From a bacterium (lineage in GTDB: Bacteria > Patescibacteriota > Minisyncoccia > UBA6257 > 2-01-FULL-56-20): DNA of 54,187 nt. The notes under the pieces were generated by a model. It saw only the letters and a list, made by a program, of their open reading frames with translations, searched no databases and had not been told where the DNA came from. The stretch is taken from the NCBI GenBank assembly GCA_027310625.1, contig DAIDAM010000009.1, positions 1 to 54,187 on the forward strand. Reading direction: 5' to 3'. Below, in pieces: positions 1-52,110 of the stretch; positions within the stretch are counted from its first letter, which is position 1; each line of letters starts with the position of its first letter. Position numbers and translations under genes: made by a program.

Positions 1-2
1 AA

Positions 3-134
3 ACTGTCAACGATCTCAACAAAGCGCTTGCCGAATACATCCCTTACTACAACGGGAAACGGCTGCATTCTGGCCTAGGTTTGCGTACGCCGCTACAGGC
101 ATTATCAACAAAGTGTTTCCAAGGTATTGATTAG
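3..134 (+). mobile_element. 3' end of an integrase-core (DDE, IS3/IS481-like) transposase, truncated by the window edge
   Basis: Frame from base 3 reads TVNDLNKALAEYIPYYNGKRLHSGLGLRTPLQALSTKCFQGID*. The YN..R.H..L...TP motif is typical of the rve-type integrase C-terminus. Confidence 0.75.
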
Positions 135-150
135 AAGACGAGTTCAGTTG

Positions 151-222
151 TGGACCGTAGCGGATTTGAACCGCTGACCCCTTCATTGCAAATGAAGTGC
201 TCTGCCACTGAGCTAACGGCCC
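151..222 (-). tRNA. tRNA-Ala(TGC)
   Basis: Cloverleaf GGGCCGT...ACGGTCC-A with G3:U70. Anticodon arm CTTCA-TTTGCAA-TGAAG. No encoded CCA. Confidence 0.95.
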
Positions 223-978
223 TTATTTGCCCATTCTCCTTTCGGTTCTTGCGTAATTCTGTATCGCTTTTTGAAATTCCGCAACAGAGAAATCGGGATA
301 AAGCGTGTCCGTGAAATAAAGTTGGCTGTCGGCGACGTCCCACATCATCATCCCGCTCGACAAGTGCGGCTCGCCGCCCGTCCTGATGACCAAATCCACC
401 GGAGGCAAATTTTTCGTCCAGAGATTTTGCTTTATCAAATCGCCGTCAATCTCGAGTTTCGAGTTTCGAGATTTTCCGCCCGAGGCGCCACGCCCGCCGT
501 CGGGCAGGGATCCGCCTTTGGCGGATAGTTTAACAATATTTCGGATTGCGCTTGTCATCTCGTCCATTCCGCTGTAAGCAAGAAGAACAGTAAGTTCGCA
601 CTTGTTGTATTTTCTTGTTTTGTCTATTGCTGACTGGATCGCTTTTTTCGCGGACGGCGAAAACATTTCTTTCCATCTGCCGAAAACGTTTATTCTGACT
701 CCGTTTTCATGCACGTACTTGCTTTTGGCCAATTTCTTGAAATAAATCTCGAATACTTTCAGAAGAAATTTAACTTCCTGCGGGGAACGCTTGGCGATGT
801 TGTCAACCGACGAGCCCCAGAATGTGAAATTTTCTATGCCCAAATCCAGCGCGGCTTTGAGTATTTTTTCCGTATTTTTCGCTCCCTCACGGTGCCCCAA
901 AAACGACGGCAGGCCTTTCTTTTTAGCCCACCGCCTGTTGCCGTCGGGAATCAAAACGATATGCCTTGGTAAATTCAT
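223..978 (-). CDS. uppS: Undecaprenyl/polyprenyl diphosphate synthase (cis-prenyltransferase) with an in-frame repeat-derived insertion
   Basis: Motifs HIVLIPDGNRRWA, GHREG, DLVIRTGGE, YFTDTLYPDF and ERRMGK. Confidence 0.95.
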   Translation of the reverse strand: MNLPRHIVLIPDGNRRWAKKKGLPSFLGHREGAKNTEKILKAALDLGIENFTFWGSSVDNIAKRSPQEVKFLLKVFEIYFKKLAKSKYVHENGVRINVFGRWKEMFSPSAKKAIQSAIDKTRKYNKCELTVLLAYSGMDEMTSAIRNIVKLSAKGGSLPDGGRGASGGKSRNSKLEIDGDLIKQNLWTKNLPPVDLVIRTGGEPHLSSGMMMWDVADSQLYFTDTLYPDFSVAEFQKAIQNYARTERRMGK

Positions 979-1099
979 CCCGTTAGAGACAGGTTGTCTT
1001 TAGACAACCGCAACGCGCGGCCACTTGGAAAAAATCTTCATTTTTTTCTGCTTGTAATTATTTCCGCGAAATTGTTGGAGTGTTTGTCTCTAACGGGAT
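977..1099. mobile_element. MITE-like inverted-repeat element (TIR ATCCCGTTAGAGACA) at the uppS start codon
   Basis: 15-bp TIRs at 977-991 and 1085-1099. ATGAA is repeated on both sides on the gene strand. Homologous copies at 25693 and 33257. Confidence 0.75.
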
Positions 1100-1104
1100 T
1101 CATC

Positions 1105-1419
1105 TCAATATCTCGTCAAAAGGAAAACGGCGACTGAGAGCGCGAACAAAACCAGCCAGCCGAGCGTCGAAAACAAAAGAACGAAAGATTTTTTTTTAAG
1201 GCCGCCGAGGTAAAGGTGAATCGGTTTTCCCAAAACCAACATTCCGGTTATCAGCGCTGAGATTACAAAAAGAAGCAAAACGAAAAGCGGCATCAGAAAA
1301 GTCGGCTGCTTGCCGAAAATATTCTGGCTGTTGAATCCCAGCCAGGCGACGGCGCCGACGTAAATGAAAACTCCGGCTGCGCTCAAAAAACTTTTCAAAA
1401 TGTATTCGGATTTTTTCAT
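1105..1419 (-). CDS. Small hypothetical membrane protein (3 TM)
   Basis: 104-aa ORF with three hydrophobic segments and an ATG start. Confidence 0.75.
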   Translation of the reverse strand: MKKSEYILKSFLSAAGVFIYVGAVAWLGFNSQNIFGKQPTFLMPLFVLLLFVISALITGMLVLGKPIHLYLGGLKKKSFVLLFSTLGWLVLFALSVAVFLLTRY

Positions 1420-1445
1420 TTGATTTGTGTCGCAGATGCAGCGTG

Positions 1446-1516
1446 TGGACCTACGGGGAATCGAACCCCGACCTTATCCATGCCATGGATACGTTCTACC
1501 GTTATACTATAGGCCC
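1446..1516 (-). tRNA. tRNA-Ala(GGC)
   Basis: GGGCCTA...TAGGTCC-A with G3:U70. Anticodon arm TATCC-ATGGCAT-GGATA. T-loop GTTCGATT. Confidence 0.93.
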
Positions 1517-1588
1517 GGTTTTCCTTGCAGTAGAATGCTTAATGAGATATCATTTTAATCTGCCGTCAAAGTTTTTTCAAATAATCAC

Positions 1589-1660
1589 GCCGCGGTAGCT
1601 CAGTGGTAGAGCGCAGCCCTGAAGAGGCTGGCGTCGGGGGTTCAATTCCCTCCCGCGGCA
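1589..1660 (+). tRNA. tRNA-Phe(GAA)
   Basis: GCCGCGG...CCGCGGC-A. Anticodon arm CAGCC-CTGAAGA-GGCTG. Confidence 0.96.
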
Positions 1661-1667
1661 CATAAAT

Positions 1668-1853
1668 GCCCCCGTAGTTCAACGGATAGAACAGATCCGT
1701 CCTACCTGCCCGACTTGCCTGACGTCCCCGTAGCTCAATGGATAGAGCTATTCCGTCCTAAGGAAGAGATGCGGGTTCAACTCCTGCCGGGGACACAAAT
1801 GCAAGTCAGGCGGGCGGGAGGATAAAATGGGAGTTCGATTCTTCCCGAGGGCA
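1668..1853 (+). tRNA. Interrupted tRNA-Arg(CCT): halves 1668-1704 and 1819-1853, separated by a 114-nt insertion at 37/38 (intron-containing gene or pseudogene)
   Basis: Joining the halves gives a full cloverleaf: GCCCCCG TA GTTC AACGGATA GAAC A GATCC GTCCTA^A GGATA AAAT GGGAG TTCGATT CTTCC CGAGGGC A. There is one C:A mismatch in the acceptor stem. Confidence 0.8.
1724..1795 (+). tRNA. Intact tRNA-Arg(CCT) nested inside the insertion of the outer tRNA-Arg
   Basis: Perfect acceptor stem GTCCCCG...CGGGGAC-A, D-stem GCTC/GAGC, A20, anticodon loop GTCCTAA, T-arm GCGGG-TTCAACT-CCTGC. Confidence 0.93.
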
Positions 1854-1876
1854 CACGTCCGCCGATGGCGAGACAC

Positions 1877-1912
1877 GGTGGGTTGGCAGAGTGGCCGAAA
1901 GCGCCCGACTCG
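1877..1912 (+). pseudogene. 5' half of a tRNA-Ser(CGA), broken in the anticodon
   Basis: GGTGGGTTGGCAGAGTGGCCGAAAGCGCCCGACTCG. The first 18 nt are identical to the intact tRNA-Ser at 2235. It is followed by a palindromic insert. Confidence 0.8.
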
Positions 1913-1948
1913 CCCGCCGGAGGCGGGTCCGCCTCGGGCGGAAAATGC
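1908..1948 (+). repeat. Direct repeat copy 1 (anticodon + double-hairpin insert + AAAATGC); copy 2 at 2343-2383, partial copy 3 at 3593-3612
   Basis: ACTCGCCCGCCGGAGGCGGGTCCGCCTCGGGCGGAAAATGC versus ACTCGCCCGCCAGAGACGAGTCCGCCCCGGGCGGAAAATGC (4 mismatches). Confidence 0.85.
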
Positions 1949-1954
1949 TAAAAA

Positions 1955-2212
1955 ATGGCTATAGTTTATATTTTATTCAGCCCGAGATTAAAGAAGTTTT
2001 ATGTAGGTTCCTCGCGTGAAAATACTCCGGATGTTCGTCTTGCGCATCACAACAATGGTTCGGTGAAATCTACGAAATCAGGTCGGCCATGGACAATAAT
2101 TGAAACAGAAAGGTTTGATAGTTATACTGGTGCCAGAAAAAGAGAGTTATTTTAAAAATCAGGGGTCGGAAGAAAACAAATCAGGAACAGATTCGGATAT
2201 TTAAAAAACTAA
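1955..2212 (+). pseudogene. Small GIY-YIG nuclease (UPF0213/YhbQ-like) with an in-frame TAA at 2153-2155
   Basis: VYILFS...FYVGSS...RLAHHN...KSTKSGRPW...ARKRELF*KSGVGRKQIRNRFGYLKN*. The expected C-terminal 'E..LKSG.GR' motif continues in the same frame after the stop, consistent with TTA>TAA. Confidence 0.85.
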
Positions 2213-2234
2213 TTGCTATAAGAGAATGCAGAGC

Positions 2235-2321
2235 GGTGGGTTGGCAGAGTGGTCTAACGCGCCGCACTCGAAATGCGGTTTCCCGGAAACGGGATCGGAG
2301 GTTCGAATCCTCCACCCACCG
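2235..2321 (+). tRNA. tRNA-Ser(CGA), intact, flanked by a 19-bp perfect inverted repeat
   Basis: GGTGGGT...ACCCACC-G. Anticodon arm CCGCA-CTCGAAA-TGCGG, long variable arm TCCCG-GAAA-CGGGA. Flanks CTATAAGAGAATGCAGAGC (2216-2234) and GCTCTGCATTCTCTTATAG (2321-2339). Confidence 0.96.
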
Positions 2322-2340
2322 CTCTGCATTCTCTTATAGG

Positions 2341-2532
2341 GCACTCGCCCGCCAGAGACGAGTCCGCCCCGGGCGGAAAATGCGGTTTCCCGGAAACGGG
2401 ATCGGAGGTTCGAACGTGAAAGGGGTCGGGAAAACGGAAGTTTTCCCGATGCGGAAGCAGCTCGTCCGCCCTGGGCGGACAGCGTTGAAACCGCTGGGTT
2501 TCAATCAAGTGAGATTCCTCCACCCACCGCCA
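2341..2532 (+). pseudogene. 3' part of a tRNA-Ser(CGA) with an anticodon insert (2348-2377) and a ~100-nt T-loop insert (2415-2515), ending in CCA
   Basis: GCACTCG^AAATGCGGTTTCCCGGAAACGGGATCGGAGGTTCGAA^TCCTCCACCCACCGCCA is identical to the intact copy once the inserts are removed. Confidence 0.85.
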
Positions 2533-2610
2533 GATGGGATTTTTCAAGCGAAGGAGCAAAAGAAATTTTTTCATTCTGATTTTTTCCAAGAAGCGGCTCA
2601 ACGCCGCTCT

Positions 2611-2639
2611 TTGACTTTTTGTAGGAATAATGTTAAATT
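2611..2639 (+). promoter_or_regulatory. Putative sigma70 promoter of the 2703 gene
   Basis: TTGACT-17 nt-TAAATT, with a strong SD (AGGAG) before the ATG at 2703. Confidence 0.4.
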
Positions 2640-2702
2640 GGCGTTCCGTGGCTTCGGAAGTACCTCGGAAGTACCATTGAAATCAGAGGAAAGGAGATAG
2701 TT

Positions 2703-3308
2703 ATGGGCGAAATGGCTGGCGCGTTCCTTGCGATTATGATCATGATCAGTGTCATTTTTCGGATTGAAGCGATGCTGAGAATGGGAGAGGAGTTGAACGC
2801 GGAATGGAAGAGGCGTTGGGATTCACTCACCGAAGGTAAACGGCGCGAAGAAGCCGGGGCCGACTTCGAGGGCTCCAAAACCATGAGTGCCGCTGGGCTG
2901 AATGCCGCGAACCTTGTGGGTATCATCGGCGTATCGTTTGTGGTCTTCGTTGTGGGAGACCTCACAGCGACATCTGATGTCCTGGCGCCGGAAGTGGAGA
3001 CCGCTTTTCGGTGGATTCGTGTGATCTTCGCGGCTTTGGTTCTATTCCTTGGAATCATGCCGTGGCTCGCGATCTACTACAATGACACGGCTCGTCGGGC
3101 AAAGCATTACGGCGTTTTCAACATGGGACGCCGTGGACGCTTTCTCGACCTCGGGTTCGCTGCGGTGGCGTTGAGCAGCTTGTTACTCGCGATCCCGGCT
3201 CTCCGCGAGTGGTTTCTGCTCATTCCGTACTTCGCTCTCGCCGGTGTCTCGCTGTACATTTTCAATGCGTGGCTGTTCTTCAATAGACCGCCGCGAGAAG
3301 CGACGTGA
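2703..3308 (+). CDS. Hypothetical multi-pass membrane protein (cargo gene)
   Basis: 201-aa ORF with about 5 hydrophobic segments, preceded by an SD. Confidence 0.75.
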   Translation: MGEMAGAFLAIMIMISVIFRIEAMLRMGEELNAEWKRRWDSLTEGKRREEAGADFEGSKTMSAAGLNAANLVGIIGVSFVVFVVGDLTATSDVLAPEVETAFRWIRVIFAALVLFLGIMPWLAIYYNDTARRAKHYGVFNMGRRGRFLDLGFAAVALSSLLLAIPALREWFLLIPYFALAGVSLYIFNAWLFFNRPPREAT

Positions 3309-3632
3309 ACGAACATGGGTTTGCCAGTTGTCCCGAACAACTGGCACTTTCTTTTTCTGAATTCAAAGAGCGAGAATTTGCCGCCAAAGACAAATAATTT
3401 TTTCATCAATTTCAAATTGAAAAATTGTCTGAATTGAGGTATGCTTAACTTAATAAAAACTTGAAATTGTTAATCTTCATTCGAAAATTCATTTTGCCCG
3501 TCCGCCCCATCCGAGTCCCGCGAAGCGGGACGAGGACAGAATTCCGTTCGAGCTATTTTTAAAATACACCGCGTAGAACTTTAACACAGCATCGCACTCG
3601 CCCGCCGGAGGCATATCCACTCTGAACAGACG

Positions 3633-3691
3633 AGCGTTGAAACCACTGGGTTTCAATCAAGTGAGATTCCTCCACCCACCGCCAGATGGGA
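3633..3691 (+). repeat. 59-bp direct repeat of 2481-2539 (end of T-loop insert + tRNA-Ser 3' end + CCA); att-like
   Basis: AGCGTTGAAACC(G/A)CTGGGTTTCAATCAAGTGAGATTCCTCCACCCACCGCCAGATGGGA, one mismatch between copies. Confidence 0.9.
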
Positions 3692-3820
3692 AATGGCTTG
3701 CCCGCTACGCGGGCTCGCCGGTCGGTTTTTGCCAAAAATTCAAGCCATTTTGAATTCAGGCGAAATCAAATAACGGCAGAAATCCTTAAAATCTTCATCA
3801 TTTCCATTTGAGTATTTGCT

Positions 3821-4681
3821 ATGAACAGCGACCAGCAAAAAGTAGTGAAATACTACACACGCCTCGAAACAAAATGGGGTTTCGATCATATCCTCTGGGG
3901 TTCAAAACATTTCGGTTTTTATCCGACCGGAAAACCGGATATACCAGAGAAAGAAGCACAAATTTTGCTTCAAGATTTAGTTGCAAAAAATTTAGATCTC
4001 AAAGGAGATCAAATCATTTTAGATGCCGGTTGCGGGCAAGGCGTGGTGTCCGCCTACCTTGCGAAAAAATACGGCCCGAAAATTTTTGGCATAACGATTG
4101 TCCCATTTGAGGTTAAACGGGCGCAGGAGCTGGCCGAAAACGCAAGCGTTCAGGACAAAACCAATTACCAGCTAATGGATTATTCAGCAACCACTTTTGC
4201 GGATAACTATTTTGATGCGATTTATACCACCGAAACACTTTCTCACTCACCCGACATCCGAAAAACACTGAAGGAATTTTTTAGGATTTTGAAGCCCGGC
4301 GGCAAGATTGCCTTCTTTGAATACACTCTTGCGCCCGATGAAAAATTTTCGCCGTGGGAGAAGAAGATGCTTGACGTTGTAATAGAAGGTTCGGCAATGA
4401 TGGGCTTGAAAGATTTCCGGCATGATCAATTTACAGGAGTTATAAGAAGCATCGGGTTTGAAAATGTAAAAGAGCAGAATATAACCGAAAATATCCGCCC
4501 GTCATTTTATCGGCTGCACAAACTATCAATTTGGCCGTACAAGCTCGTAAAGTTTTTCGGGTTACAAAAATTTTTCATCAACACTACCGCTGGCTACGAA
4601 TACTATAAAATGGCCAAGAAAGGATTGTTACGATATTGCATCTTTACAGGAAACAAAACAAAAGAATTTGCCGCCAGCTGA
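3821..4681 (+). CDS. Class I SAM-dependent methyltransferase (sterol/tocopherol C-methyltransferase-like)
   Basis: Motifs HFGFY, ILDAGCGQG (motif I), FDAIYTTETLSHSPD and RILKPGG. Confidence 0.88.
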   Translation: MNSDQQKVVKYYTRLETKWGFDHILWGSKHFGFYPTGKPDIPEKEAQILLQDLVAKNLDLKGDQIILDAGCGQGVVSAYLAKKYGPKIFGITIVPFEVKRAQELAENASVQDKTNYQLMDYSATTFADNYFDAIYTTETLSHSPDIRKTLKEFFRILKPGGKIAFFEYTLAPDEKFSPWEKKMLDVVIEGSAMMGLKDFRHDQFTGVIRSIGFENVKEQNITENIRPSFYRLHKLSIWPYKLVKFFGLQKFFINTTAGYEYYKMAKKGLLRYCIFTGNKTKEFAAS

Positions 4682-51999: not shown

Positions 52000-52026
52000 T
52001 AGGTAGATTTTAACAAAATCATCGTG

Positions 52027-52110
52027 TGCCGCGGGAGAGAATCGAACTCTCATGAGGTTGCCCTCGCAGGATTTTGAGTCCTGTGCGTCTGCCAGTTCCG
52101 CCACCGCGGC
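52027..52110 (-). tRNA. tRNA-Leu(CAA)
   Basis: GCCGCGG...CCGCGGC-A. Anticodon arm CAGGA-CTCAAAA-TCCTG, long variable arm. Confidence 0.96.

What the first reader, a model, noticed from the sequence alone, without database searches (positions are those of the whole stretch)
1668..1853. A tRNA inside a tRNA: intact tRNA-Arg(CCT) nested at position 37/38 of a second tRNA-Arg(CCT)
Seen: the halves 1668-1704 and 1819-1853 join into a complete Arg(CCT) cloverleaf. The 114-nt insert sits one base 3' of the anticodon. Its ends pair (CCTGCCCGACTTGC / GCAAGTCAGGCGGG, 13 of 14 bp) and it encloses a full second tRNA-Arg(CCT) at 1724-1795. The two tRNAs differ by compensatory changes (D-stem GTTC/GAAC vs GCTC/GAGC, different T- and acceptor stems), so the inner one is not a fresh duplicate of the outer one. 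The insert ends (CCTGCCCGAC...GGCGGGCG) match the 20-bp element nested in uppS (489-508, minus strand). Established: 37/38 is the canonical archaeal/eukaryal tRNA intron site, whereas described bacterial tRNA introns are self-splicing group I introns; no group I core is visible here. Inference: either a mobile hairpin that disrupts a tRNA while delivering an isoacceptor replacement, or a new intron type whose excision yields two tRNAs.
Basis: partly seen in the sequence, partly recalled or inferred. Interest (0 to 1): 0.92.

Follow-up and report, generated by a model that had tools for sequence, protein, structure and literature searches.

The report
Mobile tRNA cassette nested in tRNA
A small hairpin-ended piece of mobile DNA carrying its own working arginine tRNA gene sits inside the resident copy of the same gene, and it is one case of a widespread, apparently undescribed way in which tiny bacteria get their tRNA genes overwritten.

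Summary
At 1668-1853 an intact tRNA-Arg(CCT) (1724-1795) lies in a 114-nt insert. The insert's ends pair, and it splits a second tRNA-Arg(CCT) exactly at 37/38.

The split outer gene is the resident one. Relatives carry it uninterrupted: 69 of 72 identical in a same-genus genome, with the 3' half identical. The inner gene is foreign (54 of 72 to the outer).

The same insert, with the same ends at the same site, occurs in a genome of another family, between that lineage's own tRNA halves.

Two end-sequence families flank many different tRNAs across the phylum. In 45 of 45 cassettes inspected, the cassette lies inside relic pieces of a tRNA gene. The relic's anticodon equals the cargo's in all 34 where it is legible. 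Insertions are always in loops, with no target duplication.

This genome alone has at least ten such nests. It has no splicing endonuclease and no RtcB, and the insert has no group I core. Older outer copies are riddled with further insertions.

Best reading: a non-autonomous mobile cassette that overwrites a tRNA gene while supplying its replacement. It is not an intron. The enzyme and the basis of cognate targeting are unknown. I found no published description.

The parts
1668..1704 (+). Outer (resident) tRNA-Arg(CCT), 5' half: positions 1-37, ending one base after the anticodon
   Evidence: Joined to 1819-1853 it gives a tRNA-Arg(CCT) (ARAGORN on a script-made deletion). It is 34 of 37 identical to the 5' half of the uninterrupted gene of same-genus G003. 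Only C5, which makes a C5.A68 mismatch, is seen in no relative.
1705..1723 (+). Left arm of the cassette (CCTGCCCGACTTGC, 1705-1718) plus a 5-nt leader
   Evidence: Pairs with 1801-1814. This 19-nt arm averages 93% pairwise identity among 8 cassettes of the subfamily, against 72% for their tRNA cargo.
1724..1795 (+). Inner (cargo) tRNA-Arg(CCT). All stems are paired. It is the only intact tRNA-Arg(CCT) gene in the assembly.
   Evidence: ARAGORN. Rfam 58.2 bits. Genome-wide tRNA list of 48 genes. 54 of 72 identical to the outer; best match elsewhere is 65 of 72.
1796..1818 (+). 5-nt trailer, right arm (GCAAGTCAGGCGGG, 1801-1814) and terminal CGGG
   Evidence: Pairs with the left arm. The end GTCAGGCGGGCGGG recurs almost unchanged in G259, G646, G767, G479 and G616.
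1819..1853 (+). Outer tRNA-Arg(CCT), 3' half: positions 38-72 plus the discriminator base
   Evidence: 35 of 35 identical to the 3' half of G003's uninterrupted gene.
1877..2530 (+). Neighbouring second nest. Intact tRNA-Ser(CGA) (2235-2322, inside a perfect 26-bp inverted repeat 2216-2241 / 2314-2339) and a GIY-YIG ORF (1955-2155) lie between pieces of an older tRNA-Ser(CGA). The pieces are: 5' part 1877-1912; middle part 2343-2403; 3' end 2513-2530. G+C-rich hairpin pairs are at 1913-1941 and 2348-2376. A 109-nt T-loop insertion is at 2404-2512.
   Evidence: Repeat families D1-D3, D6 and inverted repeat I2. Sequence. Pfam GIY-YIG 40.1 bits. The same architecture is in G018 of another genus.
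471..530 (-). Cargo-less copy of the same ends (CCTGCCCGAC directly followed by GGCGGGCG) between two other G+C-rich hairpins. It is inserted in frame in uppS.
   Evidence: 14 exact CCTGCCCGAC sites in the genome, 8 of them in this roughly 52-nt three-hairpin unit; a 17-residue gap-free insertion relative to the same-genus G004 UppS.

Best explanation
The 114-nt insert is a non-autonomous mobile cassette. Two conserved, imperfectly complementary G+C-rich ends (CCTGCCCG.. and ..CAGGCGGG) enclose a complete, foreign tRNA-Arg(CCT) gene. The cassette was inserted precisely into the anticodon loop (37/38) of the resident tRNA-Arg(CCT) gene, without duplicating the target.

The resident gene is thereby destroyed and its two halves remain as a young relic. 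The cassette's own tRNA takes over. It is probably transcribed with the Phe-Arg-Ser cluster and cut out by the ordinary tRNA end-processing enzymes.

Shown:
- the anatomy;
- that the outer is the resident gene and the inner is foreign;
- that the same cassette sits at the same site in other lineages;
- that cassettes with these ends are always found inside tRNA genes of the same kind.

Inferred:
- that only the inner tRNA works;
- that insertion happens at the DNA level on a folded or single-stranded tRNA gene, because all insertion points lie in loops;
- that the cargo itself helps to find the target;
- that an enzyme supplied in trans recognises the conserved ends. That enzyme is not identified.
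For: (1) Resident versus foreign.
- The spliced outer is 69 of 72 identical to G003's uninterrupted gene, with the 3' half 35 of 35.
- It is 64-67 of 72 identical to uninterrupted genes in loci of seven further relatives.
- The inner is 54 of 72 to the outer. Its best match anywhere is 65 of 72.
- Contigs of an unrelated groundwater run join 1704 to 1819 exactly (2 contigs). These are uninterrupted genes of other organisms.

(2) Mobility.
- G259 (another family of the order) has the same arms at the same 37/38 site, GTCCTA|..|AGG. They lie between outer halves with a different, self-consistent anticodon stem and an extra 40-nt hairpin in the D loop.
- G151 and G160 also carry a cassette at 37/38 of Arg(CCT).

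(3) A class, not a one-off.
- The pattern for end family A plus a T loop gave 21 matches in 18 of 401 genomes of the order, and 26 matches in 21 of 401 genomes of the phylum sample. The reversed-pattern control gave 0.
- The pattern for end family B gave 11 matches in 10 of 401 genomes, control 0.
- Forty-six matches were inspected. One was a false hit. The other 45 all lie inside relic pieces of a tRNA gene.
- By my reading of the printed flanks, the relic's anticodon is legible in 34 and equals the cargo's in all 34.
- ARAGORN rebuilt an outer tRNA with the cargo's anticodon in 19 of 43. In 8 of these (D- or T-loop insertions) the result does not depend on the junction chosen.

(4) Ends under selection.
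- The 5' arm averages 93% identity against 72% for the cargo.
- Stem changes are compensatory: ACTTG/CAAGT here, ACTCG/CGAGT elsewhere.

(5) Against splicing.
- No PF01974 and no PF01139 in a 97%-complete genome, with controls positive.
- No intron family in the region at E <= 0.1, while the same search finds a group I intron in this genome's tRNA-His.
- Many outer copies carry extra hairpins, deletions or second insertions. G256 has a three-layer nest.

(6) At least ten nests in this genome: Arg CCT, TCG and CCG; Ser CGA and GGA; Glu TTC; Lys TTT; Val GAC; Leu CAG; Ile TAT.
Against: - No enzyme is identified. The cassette has no ORF.
- The genome's single Y1 transposase is flanked by a different palindrome. 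There is one tyrosine recombinase, one reverse transcriptase and no TnpB.
- No filled/empty polymorphism was seen within the source sample, so movement is inferred from comparison only.
- This particular outer copy is almost intact, with one C.A mismatch. With no RNA data, an unknown way of rejoining it cannot be excluded here.
- Cognate targeting is unexplained.
- The count of 34 legible anticodons rests on my reading of flanks. Two automated checks were weaker: 19 of 43 rebuilt, 4 rebuilt only with another anticodon and 20 not rebuilt; and flanks resembled the element's own cargo more than any other-isotype cargo in only 23 of 43.
- Ten of the 24 non-G000 phylum matches were not inspected.
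- The genomes are samples of their groups, and relatives are not independent.
Confidence: 0.8

Rival explanations
1. A new kind of tRNA intron. The transcript is processed so that the inner tRNA is released and the two outer halves, held together by the 14-bp stem, are rejoined. One locus then yields two tRNA-Arg(CCT) molecules.
For: - The position is 37/38, the canonical protein-spliced intron site.
- The ends pair next to the anticodon stem.
- The outer still folds, with one mismatch.
- All insertion points in the class are in loops, as archaeal introns are. That comparison is recalled, not tested.
Against: - Only 2 of the 4 central-helix pairs of a bulge-helix-bulge can form (sequence).
- No splicing endonuclease and no RtcB.
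- No ribozyme family.
- Two identical-anticodon tRNAs from one locus have no evident use.
- In other nests the outer carries further hairpins, T-loop insertions or deletions.
- Same-genus relatives lack the insert.
Confidence: 0.05
2. The same cassette, but moved by homing. A GIY-YIG endonuclease supplied in trans cuts the intact tRNA gene, and repair copies the cassette in from a filled allele.
For: - Small GIY-YIG ORFs lie inside the Ser and Val nests and 68 nt from tRNA-Gln, so 3 of the 4 small ones in the genome are beside tRNAs.
- tblastn found homologues in tRNA-cluster loci of 7 other genomes among 70 loci (171 kb) fetched around tRNAs.
- Phage T4 SegB is a GIY-YIG enzyme that acts in a tRNA gene cluster (PMC2330249, search listing and abstract start only).
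Against: - The Arg cassette has no ORF.
- The same end family is found with more than 15 different cargo and target tRNAs and at several sites. A sequence-specific endonuclease would not cover these.
- No co-conversion of the outer anticodon stems next to the junction.
- Most nests have no GIY-YIG ORF nearby.
Confidence: 0.15
3. The footprint of an integrase-type element. A circular element recombined with the tRNA gene, as phages and islands do, and carried tRNA sequence that restores the gene.
For: - Other loci in this genome do look like that. tRNA-Tyr, tRNA-Arg(TCT) and tRNA-Ile(GAT) are followed by an insert and a duplicated tRNA 3' end.
- The Ser nest has a 41-nt direct repeat around the ORF and the inner tRNA.
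Against: - At the Arg nest there is no direct repeat of tRNA sequence.
- The cargo is a whole tRNA between inverted, not direct, ends.
- 114 nt cannot encode a recombinase.
- The genome has one PF00589 hit, far away on another contig.
Confidence: 0.04
4. A local accident. The resident gene was duplicated and rearranged, and the copies then diverged. No mobile element is involved.
For: - Inner and outer share 54 of 72 positions.
- In the Lys nest the insert carries about 28 nt of leader that resembles the outer's leader.
Against: - The outer 3' half is still identical to that of a same-genus relative, while the inner differs at 18 positions. The two cannot be a recent local pair.
- The same arms flank other tRNAs in many families.
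- Reciprocal cases exist. The cargo type of G018 and G004 is the resident type of G320, and the reverse.
Confidence: 0.02

Closest known systems
Integrative elements (phages, islands, archaeal plasmids) that insert into tRNA genes and carry a replacement piece of the tRNA. Example: the tRNA-Thr disruption model in Caldiarchaeum (PMC3293823, abstract read).
   Same: They target tRNA genes, keep the host alive by bringing tRNA sequence, and leave displaced tRNA fragments behind.
   Different: Those elements encode a recombinase, restore only the part 3' (or 5') of the crossover, and leave direct repeats. Here a whole tRNA lies between inverted ends, nested in a loop, in an element of about 110 nt with no gene.
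MITEs and REP/REPIN elements moved in trans by a transposase (REPIN and RAYT work recalled, not read here)
   Same: Short, non-autonomous, hairpin-forming inverted ends, many copies, cargo-less copies scattered in the genome, ends more conserved than the middle.
   Different: - There is no target-site duplication, as a DDE-type MITE would leave.
- The one Y1 transposase is flanked by another palindrome.
- No known MITE or REPIN carries a tRNA gene and lands only in the matching tRNA gene, as far as my searches and memory go.
Protein-spliced tRNA introns of archaea and eukaryotes at 37/38 and at non-canonical loop positions (reviews seen only as search listings)
   Same: The position is 37/38. 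Other members of the class sit in D and T loops. The ends pair next to the anticodon stem.
   Different: The genome is bacterial (tmRNA). There is no bulge-helix-bulge, no endonuclease and no RtcB. The interrupted copies decay.
Group I introns in bacterial tRNA anticodon loops (PMC3984707, search listing only; an intron in tRNA-Arg(CCU) of alpha-proteobacteria is recalled)
   Same: An intervening sequence in the anticodon loop of a bacterial tRNA. The same genome has a true one in tRNA-His.
   Different: The insert is 114 nt with no catalytic core. Function is restored by a spare gene, not by splicing.
Free-standing homing endonuclease genes that bring a copy of the host gene's end, such as T4 segB in the tRNA cluster (PMC2330249, listing only), and mitochondrial cases such as Allomyces atp6 (recalled)
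   Same: A selfish insertion made harmless by carrying a substitute for what it breaks. GIY-YIG ORFs lie in two of this genome's nests.
   Different: The Arg cassette has no endonuclease gene. The flanks show no co-conversion. One end family serves many different targets.
Rickettsia palindromic elements inserted in frame in protein genes and in RNA genes (recalled)
   Same: The cargo-less G+C-rich hairpin units here also sit in frame in a protein gene (uppS) and in tRNA relics.
   Different: Those elements carry no gene and are not tied to one kind of target.

Membership tests
Protein-spliced (archaeal/eukaryal type) tRNA intron | Intron one base 3' of the anticodon (37/38) | tested here: met
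   The break lies between A37 (1704) and A38 (1819).
Protein-spliced (archaeal/eukaryal type) tRNA intron | Bulge-helix-bulge at the exon-intron junctions: two 3-nt bulges around a 4-bp helix (definition recalled) | tested here: not met
   Positions 32-35 (GTCC) can pair with only 2 of the 4 required intron bases. The fold shows a nearly continuous helix instead.
Protein-spliced (archaeal/eukaryal type) tRNA intron | Splicing endonuclease and RNA ligase encoded by the organism | tested here: not met
   PF01974: 0 hits; the control rings in 4 archaea. PF01139 RtcB: 0 hits; the control rings in 10 genomes. The genome is 96.9% complete, so absence is not proven.
Protein-spliced (archaeal/eukaryal type) tRNA intron | Spliced outer tRNA present as RNA | not testable with these tools
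   No RNA run holds the stretch beyond a small unlaid share.
Group I intron in a bacterial tRNA | Group I catalytic core | tested here: not met
   Rfam at E <= 0.1 over window 1-4040 gives only tRNAs. RF00028 does hit the tRNA-His insert of the same genome at 51.1 bits.
tRNA-targeting integrative element (tyrosine recombinase) | Recombinase gene in the element, and direct repeats of the tRNA segment at its two ends | tested here: not met
   No element gene: the only ORF of 40 aa or more overlapping 1705-1818 (1748-1876, minus strand, 42 aa) lies antisense across the tRNA and runs past the insert. No direct repeat of tRNA sequence around the insert. The single PF00589 hit is on another contig.
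MITE (DDE-transposon derivative) | Terminal inverted repeats | tested here: met
   13 of 14 positions pair. The ends are conserved across genomes.
MITE (DDE-transposon derivative) | Target-site duplication | tested here: not met
   The outer tRNA is restored exactly by deleting 1705-1818. The same holds in the other anticodon-loop nests. One possible 4-nt repeat (TTCA) is at the Leu(CAG) nest only.
REP/REPIN with its RAYT | A single-copy Y1 transposase flanked by the same palindromes | tested here: not met
   One PF01797 hit. Its ORF is flanked, and interrupted in frame, by a different palindrome with core GGAAGTCGGACTTCC.
IS200/IS605-type single-strand transposon | Insertion 3' of one fixed short target word | tested here: not met
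   The bases 5' of the insertion differ among cassettes with the same ends..CCTA..CTTC..CTGA..TTTG..GGATA..GAGTTC.
Homing-endonuclease element | Endonuclease ORF inside the element | tested here: not met
   There is none in the Arg cassette. GIY-YIG ORFs are present in the Ser and Val nests.
Homing-endonuclease element | Co-conversion of flanking exon sequence | tested here: not met
   Each outer keeps its own lineage's anticodon stem right up to the loop. For Arg CCT: G000 GATCC/GGATA, G259 ATCCC/GGGAA. The five Arg(TCG) nests likewise.

The most novel reading that the evidence does not exclude
The tRNA cargo is the address. One transposition machinery recognises the conserved ends, and the element is led to its landing place by the likeness between the tRNA it carries and the resident gene. 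A change of cargo would then retarget the element.

This would be a natural, cargo-guided gene-replacement element that spreads tRNA genes horizontally and overwrites resident ones across a whole phylum. It inserts into loops of the folded gene, with no target duplication and no co-conversion.
Probability: 0.3. Interest if true: 0.95.

Novelty: categorically new. Interest (0 to 1): 0.9.

Why it matters
If this holds, tRNA genes in these minimal-genome bacteria are not stable heirlooms. They are repeatedly overwritten by selfish cassettes that pay their way by bringing a working substitute.

- It offers a third way, beside self-splicing and protein splicing, for an insertion in an essential gene to be harmless.
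- It would explain sharply different tRNA sequences between close relatives. For example, same-genus G001 has an Arg(CCT) gene only 52 of 72 identical to the outer.
- It would explain layered tRNA relics, and possibly some of the odd tRNA identities reported in this group.
- The strict match of cargo and target under shared ends points to a targeting principle that is not known. If it is guided by homology, it could be of practical interest.
- It warns annotators that tRNA finders with intron modes make chimeric calls at such loci.
- It bears on the old question of how tRNA genes come to be interrupted.

Tried and rejected
Assembly artefact. Rejected for the bin: separately assembled contigs of three runs bridge both junctions with no difference. 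They are one sample, probably the source. No listed piece spans the whole 1400-2700 stretch, which I do not read as evidence of anything.

RNA evidence. Six RNA runs were listed with 0.04-0.07 of the sampled words.

ARAGORN intron mode. On the native sequence it gave a chimeric call (outer 5' half joined to inner 3' half). Genome-wide with overlaps allowed it gave many false long-intron calls. I used it only to locate candidate outer boundaries.

Automatic nest scan by deleting each tRNA with variable flanks. It is noisy, finds only well-preserved outers, and missed the G259 and G004 nests.

Similarity of flanks to the element's own cargo. Only 23 of 43 beat all other-isotype cargos. The test is weak because the cargo is foreign and tRNA D and T arms are generic.

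ARAGORN rebuilding of the outer. Nineteen of 43 with the cargo's anticodon, 4 only with another, 20 none. For anticodon-loop insertions the call depends on the junction offset.

'Three private substitutions show decay of the outer.' Withdrawn. Two of the three variants (AACGG, CAGATCC) occur in other lineages' genes. Only C5 is private.

RAYT as the mover. Its own flanking palindrome is different.

Homologous-recombination spread using the outer halves as arms. Unlikely, because the outer anticodon stems stay lineage-specific up to the loop.

tRNA-Asn. A regex search found no tRNA-Asn, and none of the fetched loci held one to use as a query.

Literature. Seven searches of the held open-access library found no description of tRNA genes nested in cognate tRNA genes or of tRNA-carrying inverted-repeat elements.
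Full report
WHAT IS THERE

The window is contig C12 of a 766-kb, 47.9% G+C assembly of 21 contigs. It has a tmRNA and 48 tRNA genes, so it is a very small bacterial genome. Positions 1440-2540 hold a tRNA cluster: Ala(GGC) on the minus strand, then Phe, Arg(CCT) and Ser(CGA).

The finding's anatomy is exact:
- 1668-1704 and 1819-1853 are positions 1-37 and 38-73 of a tRNA-Arg(CCT).
- The 114 nt between them begin with CCTGCCCGACTTGC and end with GCAAGTCAGGCGGG plus CGGG. These pair at 13 of 14 positions.
- Five bases inside each arm lies an intact tRNA-Arg(CCT), 1724-1795 (ARAGORN; Rfam 58.2 bits).

A script-made deletion of the insert is called as tRNA-Arg(CCT) by ARAGORN. The native RNA folds as a cloverleaf on a long stem within the outer anticodon stem (-82 kcal/mol, z = -4.5).

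Contigs assembled separately from three runs of one sample bridge both junctions without a difference. That sample is probably the source, so this excludes a binning or scaffolding artefact but is not independent of the sample.

WHICH COPY IS THE RESIDENT

A search of 40 relatives and inspection of their loci show uninterrupted tRNA-Arg(CCT) genes that match the outer, not the inner.
- Same-genus G003: 69 of 72, with the 3' half 35 of 35.
- G004, G002, G008, G016, G023, G039 and G367: 64-67 of 72.

The inner is 54 of 72 to the outer. Its best match among the 40 Arg(CCT) genes in hand is 65 of 72.

An unrelated groundwater run has two contigs that join 1704 to 1819 exactly. At 90% likeness these are other organisms' uninterrupted genes.

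So the insert is a recent, lineage-specific arrival in the resident gene, and its tRNA is foreign. The relic is young. Only C5, which makes a C5.A68 mismatch, is private. Two other differences from G003 occur in other lineages too.

Same-genus G001 has an uninterrupted Arg(CCT) only 52 of 72 identical to the outer. That fits frequent replacement.

THE SAME CASSETTE ELSEWHERE

A search with the 114 nt in 400 genomes of the order found a full-length match (83%) in G259, a different family.

There the arms are almost identical: GCCCGACTTGCCTGAC on the left and CAAATACAAGTCAGGCGGGCGGG on the right. The site is again GTCCTA|..|AGG. The outer halves, however, are G259's own, with anticodon stem ATCCC/GGGAA against GATCC/GGATA here. 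They also carry a 40-nt hairpin in the D loop. The cargo has yet another anticodon stem.

G151 and G160 also have cassettes at 37/38 of Arg(CCT).

Shared ancestry of the insertion is excluded by the empty same-genus sites. These are independent insertions of one kind of element at one site.

A CLASS OF ELEMENTS

This genome has many more nests:
- Ser(CGA), next door at 1877-2530, with a GIY-YIG ORF;
- Arg(TCG), Glu(TTC), Arg(CCG), Lys(TTT) and Val(GAC) (the last with a GIY-YIG ORF and a third relic);
- Leu(CAG), Ile(TAT) and Ser(GGA);
- probable relics at Glu(CTC) and Gly(CCC).

Sister genome G004 has tRNA-Ala(TGC) inside tRNA-Ala(TGC).

Two families of ends recur:
- A: CCTGCCCG(A/C)C ... CAGGCGGG.
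- B: CCCCGCAC(C/T)AAA ... (A/G)GTGCGGGG.

I searched for each as a pattern that specifies only the two ends and a T loop. The pattern is therefore blind to what lies outside the cassette.
- Family A gave 21 matches in 18 of 401 genomes of the order.
- Family A gave 26 matches in 21 of 401 genomes sampled across the phylum.
- Family B gave 11 matches in 10 of 401 genomes of the order.
- The reversed-pattern control gave 0 in all three.

I inspected 46 matches:
- all 21;
- 14 of the 24 non-G000 matches;
- all 11.

One of the 46 is a false hit: a tRNA-Phe with a group I intron and a terminator.

The other 45 carry tRNAs of at least 22 anticodons:
- Arg CCT, TCT, TCG, CCG, GCG;
- Ala CGC;
- Thr CGT, TGT, GGT;
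- Cys; Leu TAG, CAA; Ile GAT;
- Pro TGG, GGG, CGG;
- Gly CCC; Val CAC; Lys CTT; Asp GTC;
- Glu TTC, CTC.

Every one lies between pieces of a tRNA gene.

By my reading of the flanks, the relic's anticodon is legible in 34 and equals the cargo's in all 34. In 11 the relic is truncated or further disrupted. None is outside a tRNA gene or in a legibly different one.

Automated support is partial.
- ARAGORN rebuilt an outer tRNA with the cargo's anticodon in 19 of 43. Eight of these are D- or T-loop insertions, where the anticodon arm is untouched.
- It rebuilt only another anticodon in 4, and nothing in 20.
- A similarity test scored 23 of 43.

Insertion points are all in loops: 31/32 to 37/38, 21/22 in the D loop, and the T loop. 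No target duplication is seen, apart from a possible TTCA at one nest.

G256 holds three layers of Arg(TCG).

The cargo type of G018 and G004 (acceptor GTCCCCG..) is the resident type in G320. The cargo of G320 is the resident type of G018 and G000. Cargos are therefore other lineages' native tRNAs.

In the subfamily to which this cassette belongs, the left arm is far better conserved than the cargo (93% against 72%, 8 members). Stem changes are compensatory.

Cargo-less copies of the ends exist:
- in a roughly 52-nt three-hairpin unit, which accounts for 8 of the 14 CCTGCCCGAC sites;
- one of those in frame in uppS;
- a solo hairpin between two convergent ORFs on C9.

WHY NOT AN INTRON

- Only two of the four central pairs of a bulge-helix-bulge can form.
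- The genome (96.9% complete) has no splicing endonuclease and no RtcB, with positive controls.
- Rfam finds no intron family in the region, although it finds a group I intron in this genome's tRNA-His.
- Across the class, outer copies accumulate hairpins, second insertions and deletions.

For this young relic alone, rejoining by an unknown route cannot be excluded without RNA data. No RNA run holds the stretch.

HOW IT MOST LIKELY WORKS

Shown:
- precise, loop-directed insertion without duplication;
- no co-conversion of the neighbouring stem;
- conserved imperfect inverted ends;
- variable cargo, always cognate to the target.

Inferred:
- The cassette is non-autonomous and is moved by a protein that recognises the ends, acting on a folded or single-stranded tRNA gene.
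- The inner tRNA is expressed with the cluster and matured by the ordinary enzymes.
- The relic has no function.

Why the target is always cognate is open. Lethality of non-cognate hits is not a sufficient filter. Many targets are C34 isoacceptors that a U34 partner could probably cover (established wobble rules; inference), yet no non-cognate nest was seen. This points to the cargo itself guiding the choice.

Candidate enzymes are weak:
- four small GIY-YIG ORFs, three beside tRNAs and two inside nests, with homologues near tRNA clusters in seven other genomes;
- one Y1 transposase with a different palindrome;
- one tyrosine recombinase, one reverse transcriptase and no TnpB.

COMPARISON AND NOVELTY

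The element shares something with each of four known kinds:
- with tRNA-targeting integrative elements, the trick of bringing tRNA sequence;
- with MITEs and REPINs, the small hairpin-ended, trans-mobilised form;
- with archaeal introns, the positions;
- with homing elements, site fidelity.

It fails a defining test of each (see Membership tests).

Seven full-text searches found no description. I read only the abstract of PMC3293823 and saw search listings of the others. Other comparisons are recalled. Subscription literature and supplements were out of reach.

I rate it categorically new with that caveat, and of high interest.

Noticed in passing
window 1877-2530 and 3596-3692: A second, more complex nest. 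An intact tRNA-Ser(CGA) sits in a perfect 26-bp inverted repeat, next to a GIY-YIG ORF whose Pfam match runs past its TAA stop. Both lie between pieces of an older tRNA-Ser. That older gene also carries G+C hairpin pairs in the anticodon loop, a 41-nt direct repeat and a 109-nt T-loop insertion. A further copy of the tRNA-Ser 3' end lies 1.1 kb downstream, bracketing a 201-aa membrane-like ORF. G018 has the same architecture.
   Followed up: partly
window 471-530 (minus strand, in uppS 223-978): A roughly 51-nt three-hairpin G+C-rich unit is inserted in frame in uppS. It adds 17 residues (SAKGGSLPDGGRGASGG) that are absent from the same-genus orthologue. Blastn with the uppS unit finds at least nine copies of the same unit elsewhere in the genome.
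   Followed up: partly
G000:C6:39147-39461 (L022): A tRNA-His(GTG) is interrupted by a 219-nt group I intron (Rfam RF00028, 51.1 bits). A second, intact tRNA-His(GTG) is on C10. Split tRNA-Phe matches about 200-230 nt apart in G009, G017 and G028 suggest similar introns there.
   Followed up: partly
G000:C10:71016-71278, C18:3155-3418, C3:121793-122054 (L026, L024, L025): tRNA-Tyr, tRNA-Arg(TCT) and tRNA-Ile(GAT) are each followed by an insert and a duplicated tRNA 3' end, as if hit in the T loop. The Arg(TCT) and Ile inserts share a conserved element of about 125 nt with no Rfam match. The Tyr insert shares a repeat with the T-loop insertion in the outer tRNA-Ser and with sites beside tRNA-Gln and tRNA-Asp.
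   Followed up: partly
G000:C10:105155-105865: The single Y1 (IS200/RAYT-like) transposase ORF is flanked by copies of a palindrome with core GGAAGTCGGACTTCC. One copy lies inside its own reading frame without breaking it.
   Followed up: partly
L065 (G256:C6), L096 (G781:C1): G256 has three layers of tRNA-Arg(TCG), each split at 35/36 by the next cassette. In G781 the outer Arg(CCT) relic has a cassette in the D loop and also a small cargo-less hairpin at exactly 37/38.
   Followed up: partly
L002 about 2440-2700 (G004:C45): In the sister genome, tRNA-Ala(TGC) is nested in tRNA-Ala(TGC) after position 35, with a 12-bp flanking stem. A separate 20-nt palindrome (CCTGCCTGCCGGCAGGCAGG) lies in the outer copy. 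That palindrome recurs in several other relics.
   Followed up: partly
whole assembly G000: No tRNA-Asn(GTT) was found by ARAGORN or by a regex scan. It may be unassembled or disrupted beyond recognition.
   Followed up: partly
window 52026-52110 and G000:C18:812-897, C18:1776-1851: tRNA-Leu(CAA), tRNA-Ser(TGA) and tRNA-Val(TAC) have 10-12 pairing positions in leader-trailer stems next to the acceptor stem. The last two have family-B-like ends. No outer relic was recognised around them.
   Followed up: no
window 3-131: The window opens with the C-terminal end of an rve-type integrase/transposase (Pfam rve_2, rve_3) beside tRNA-Ala(TGC).
   Followed up: no
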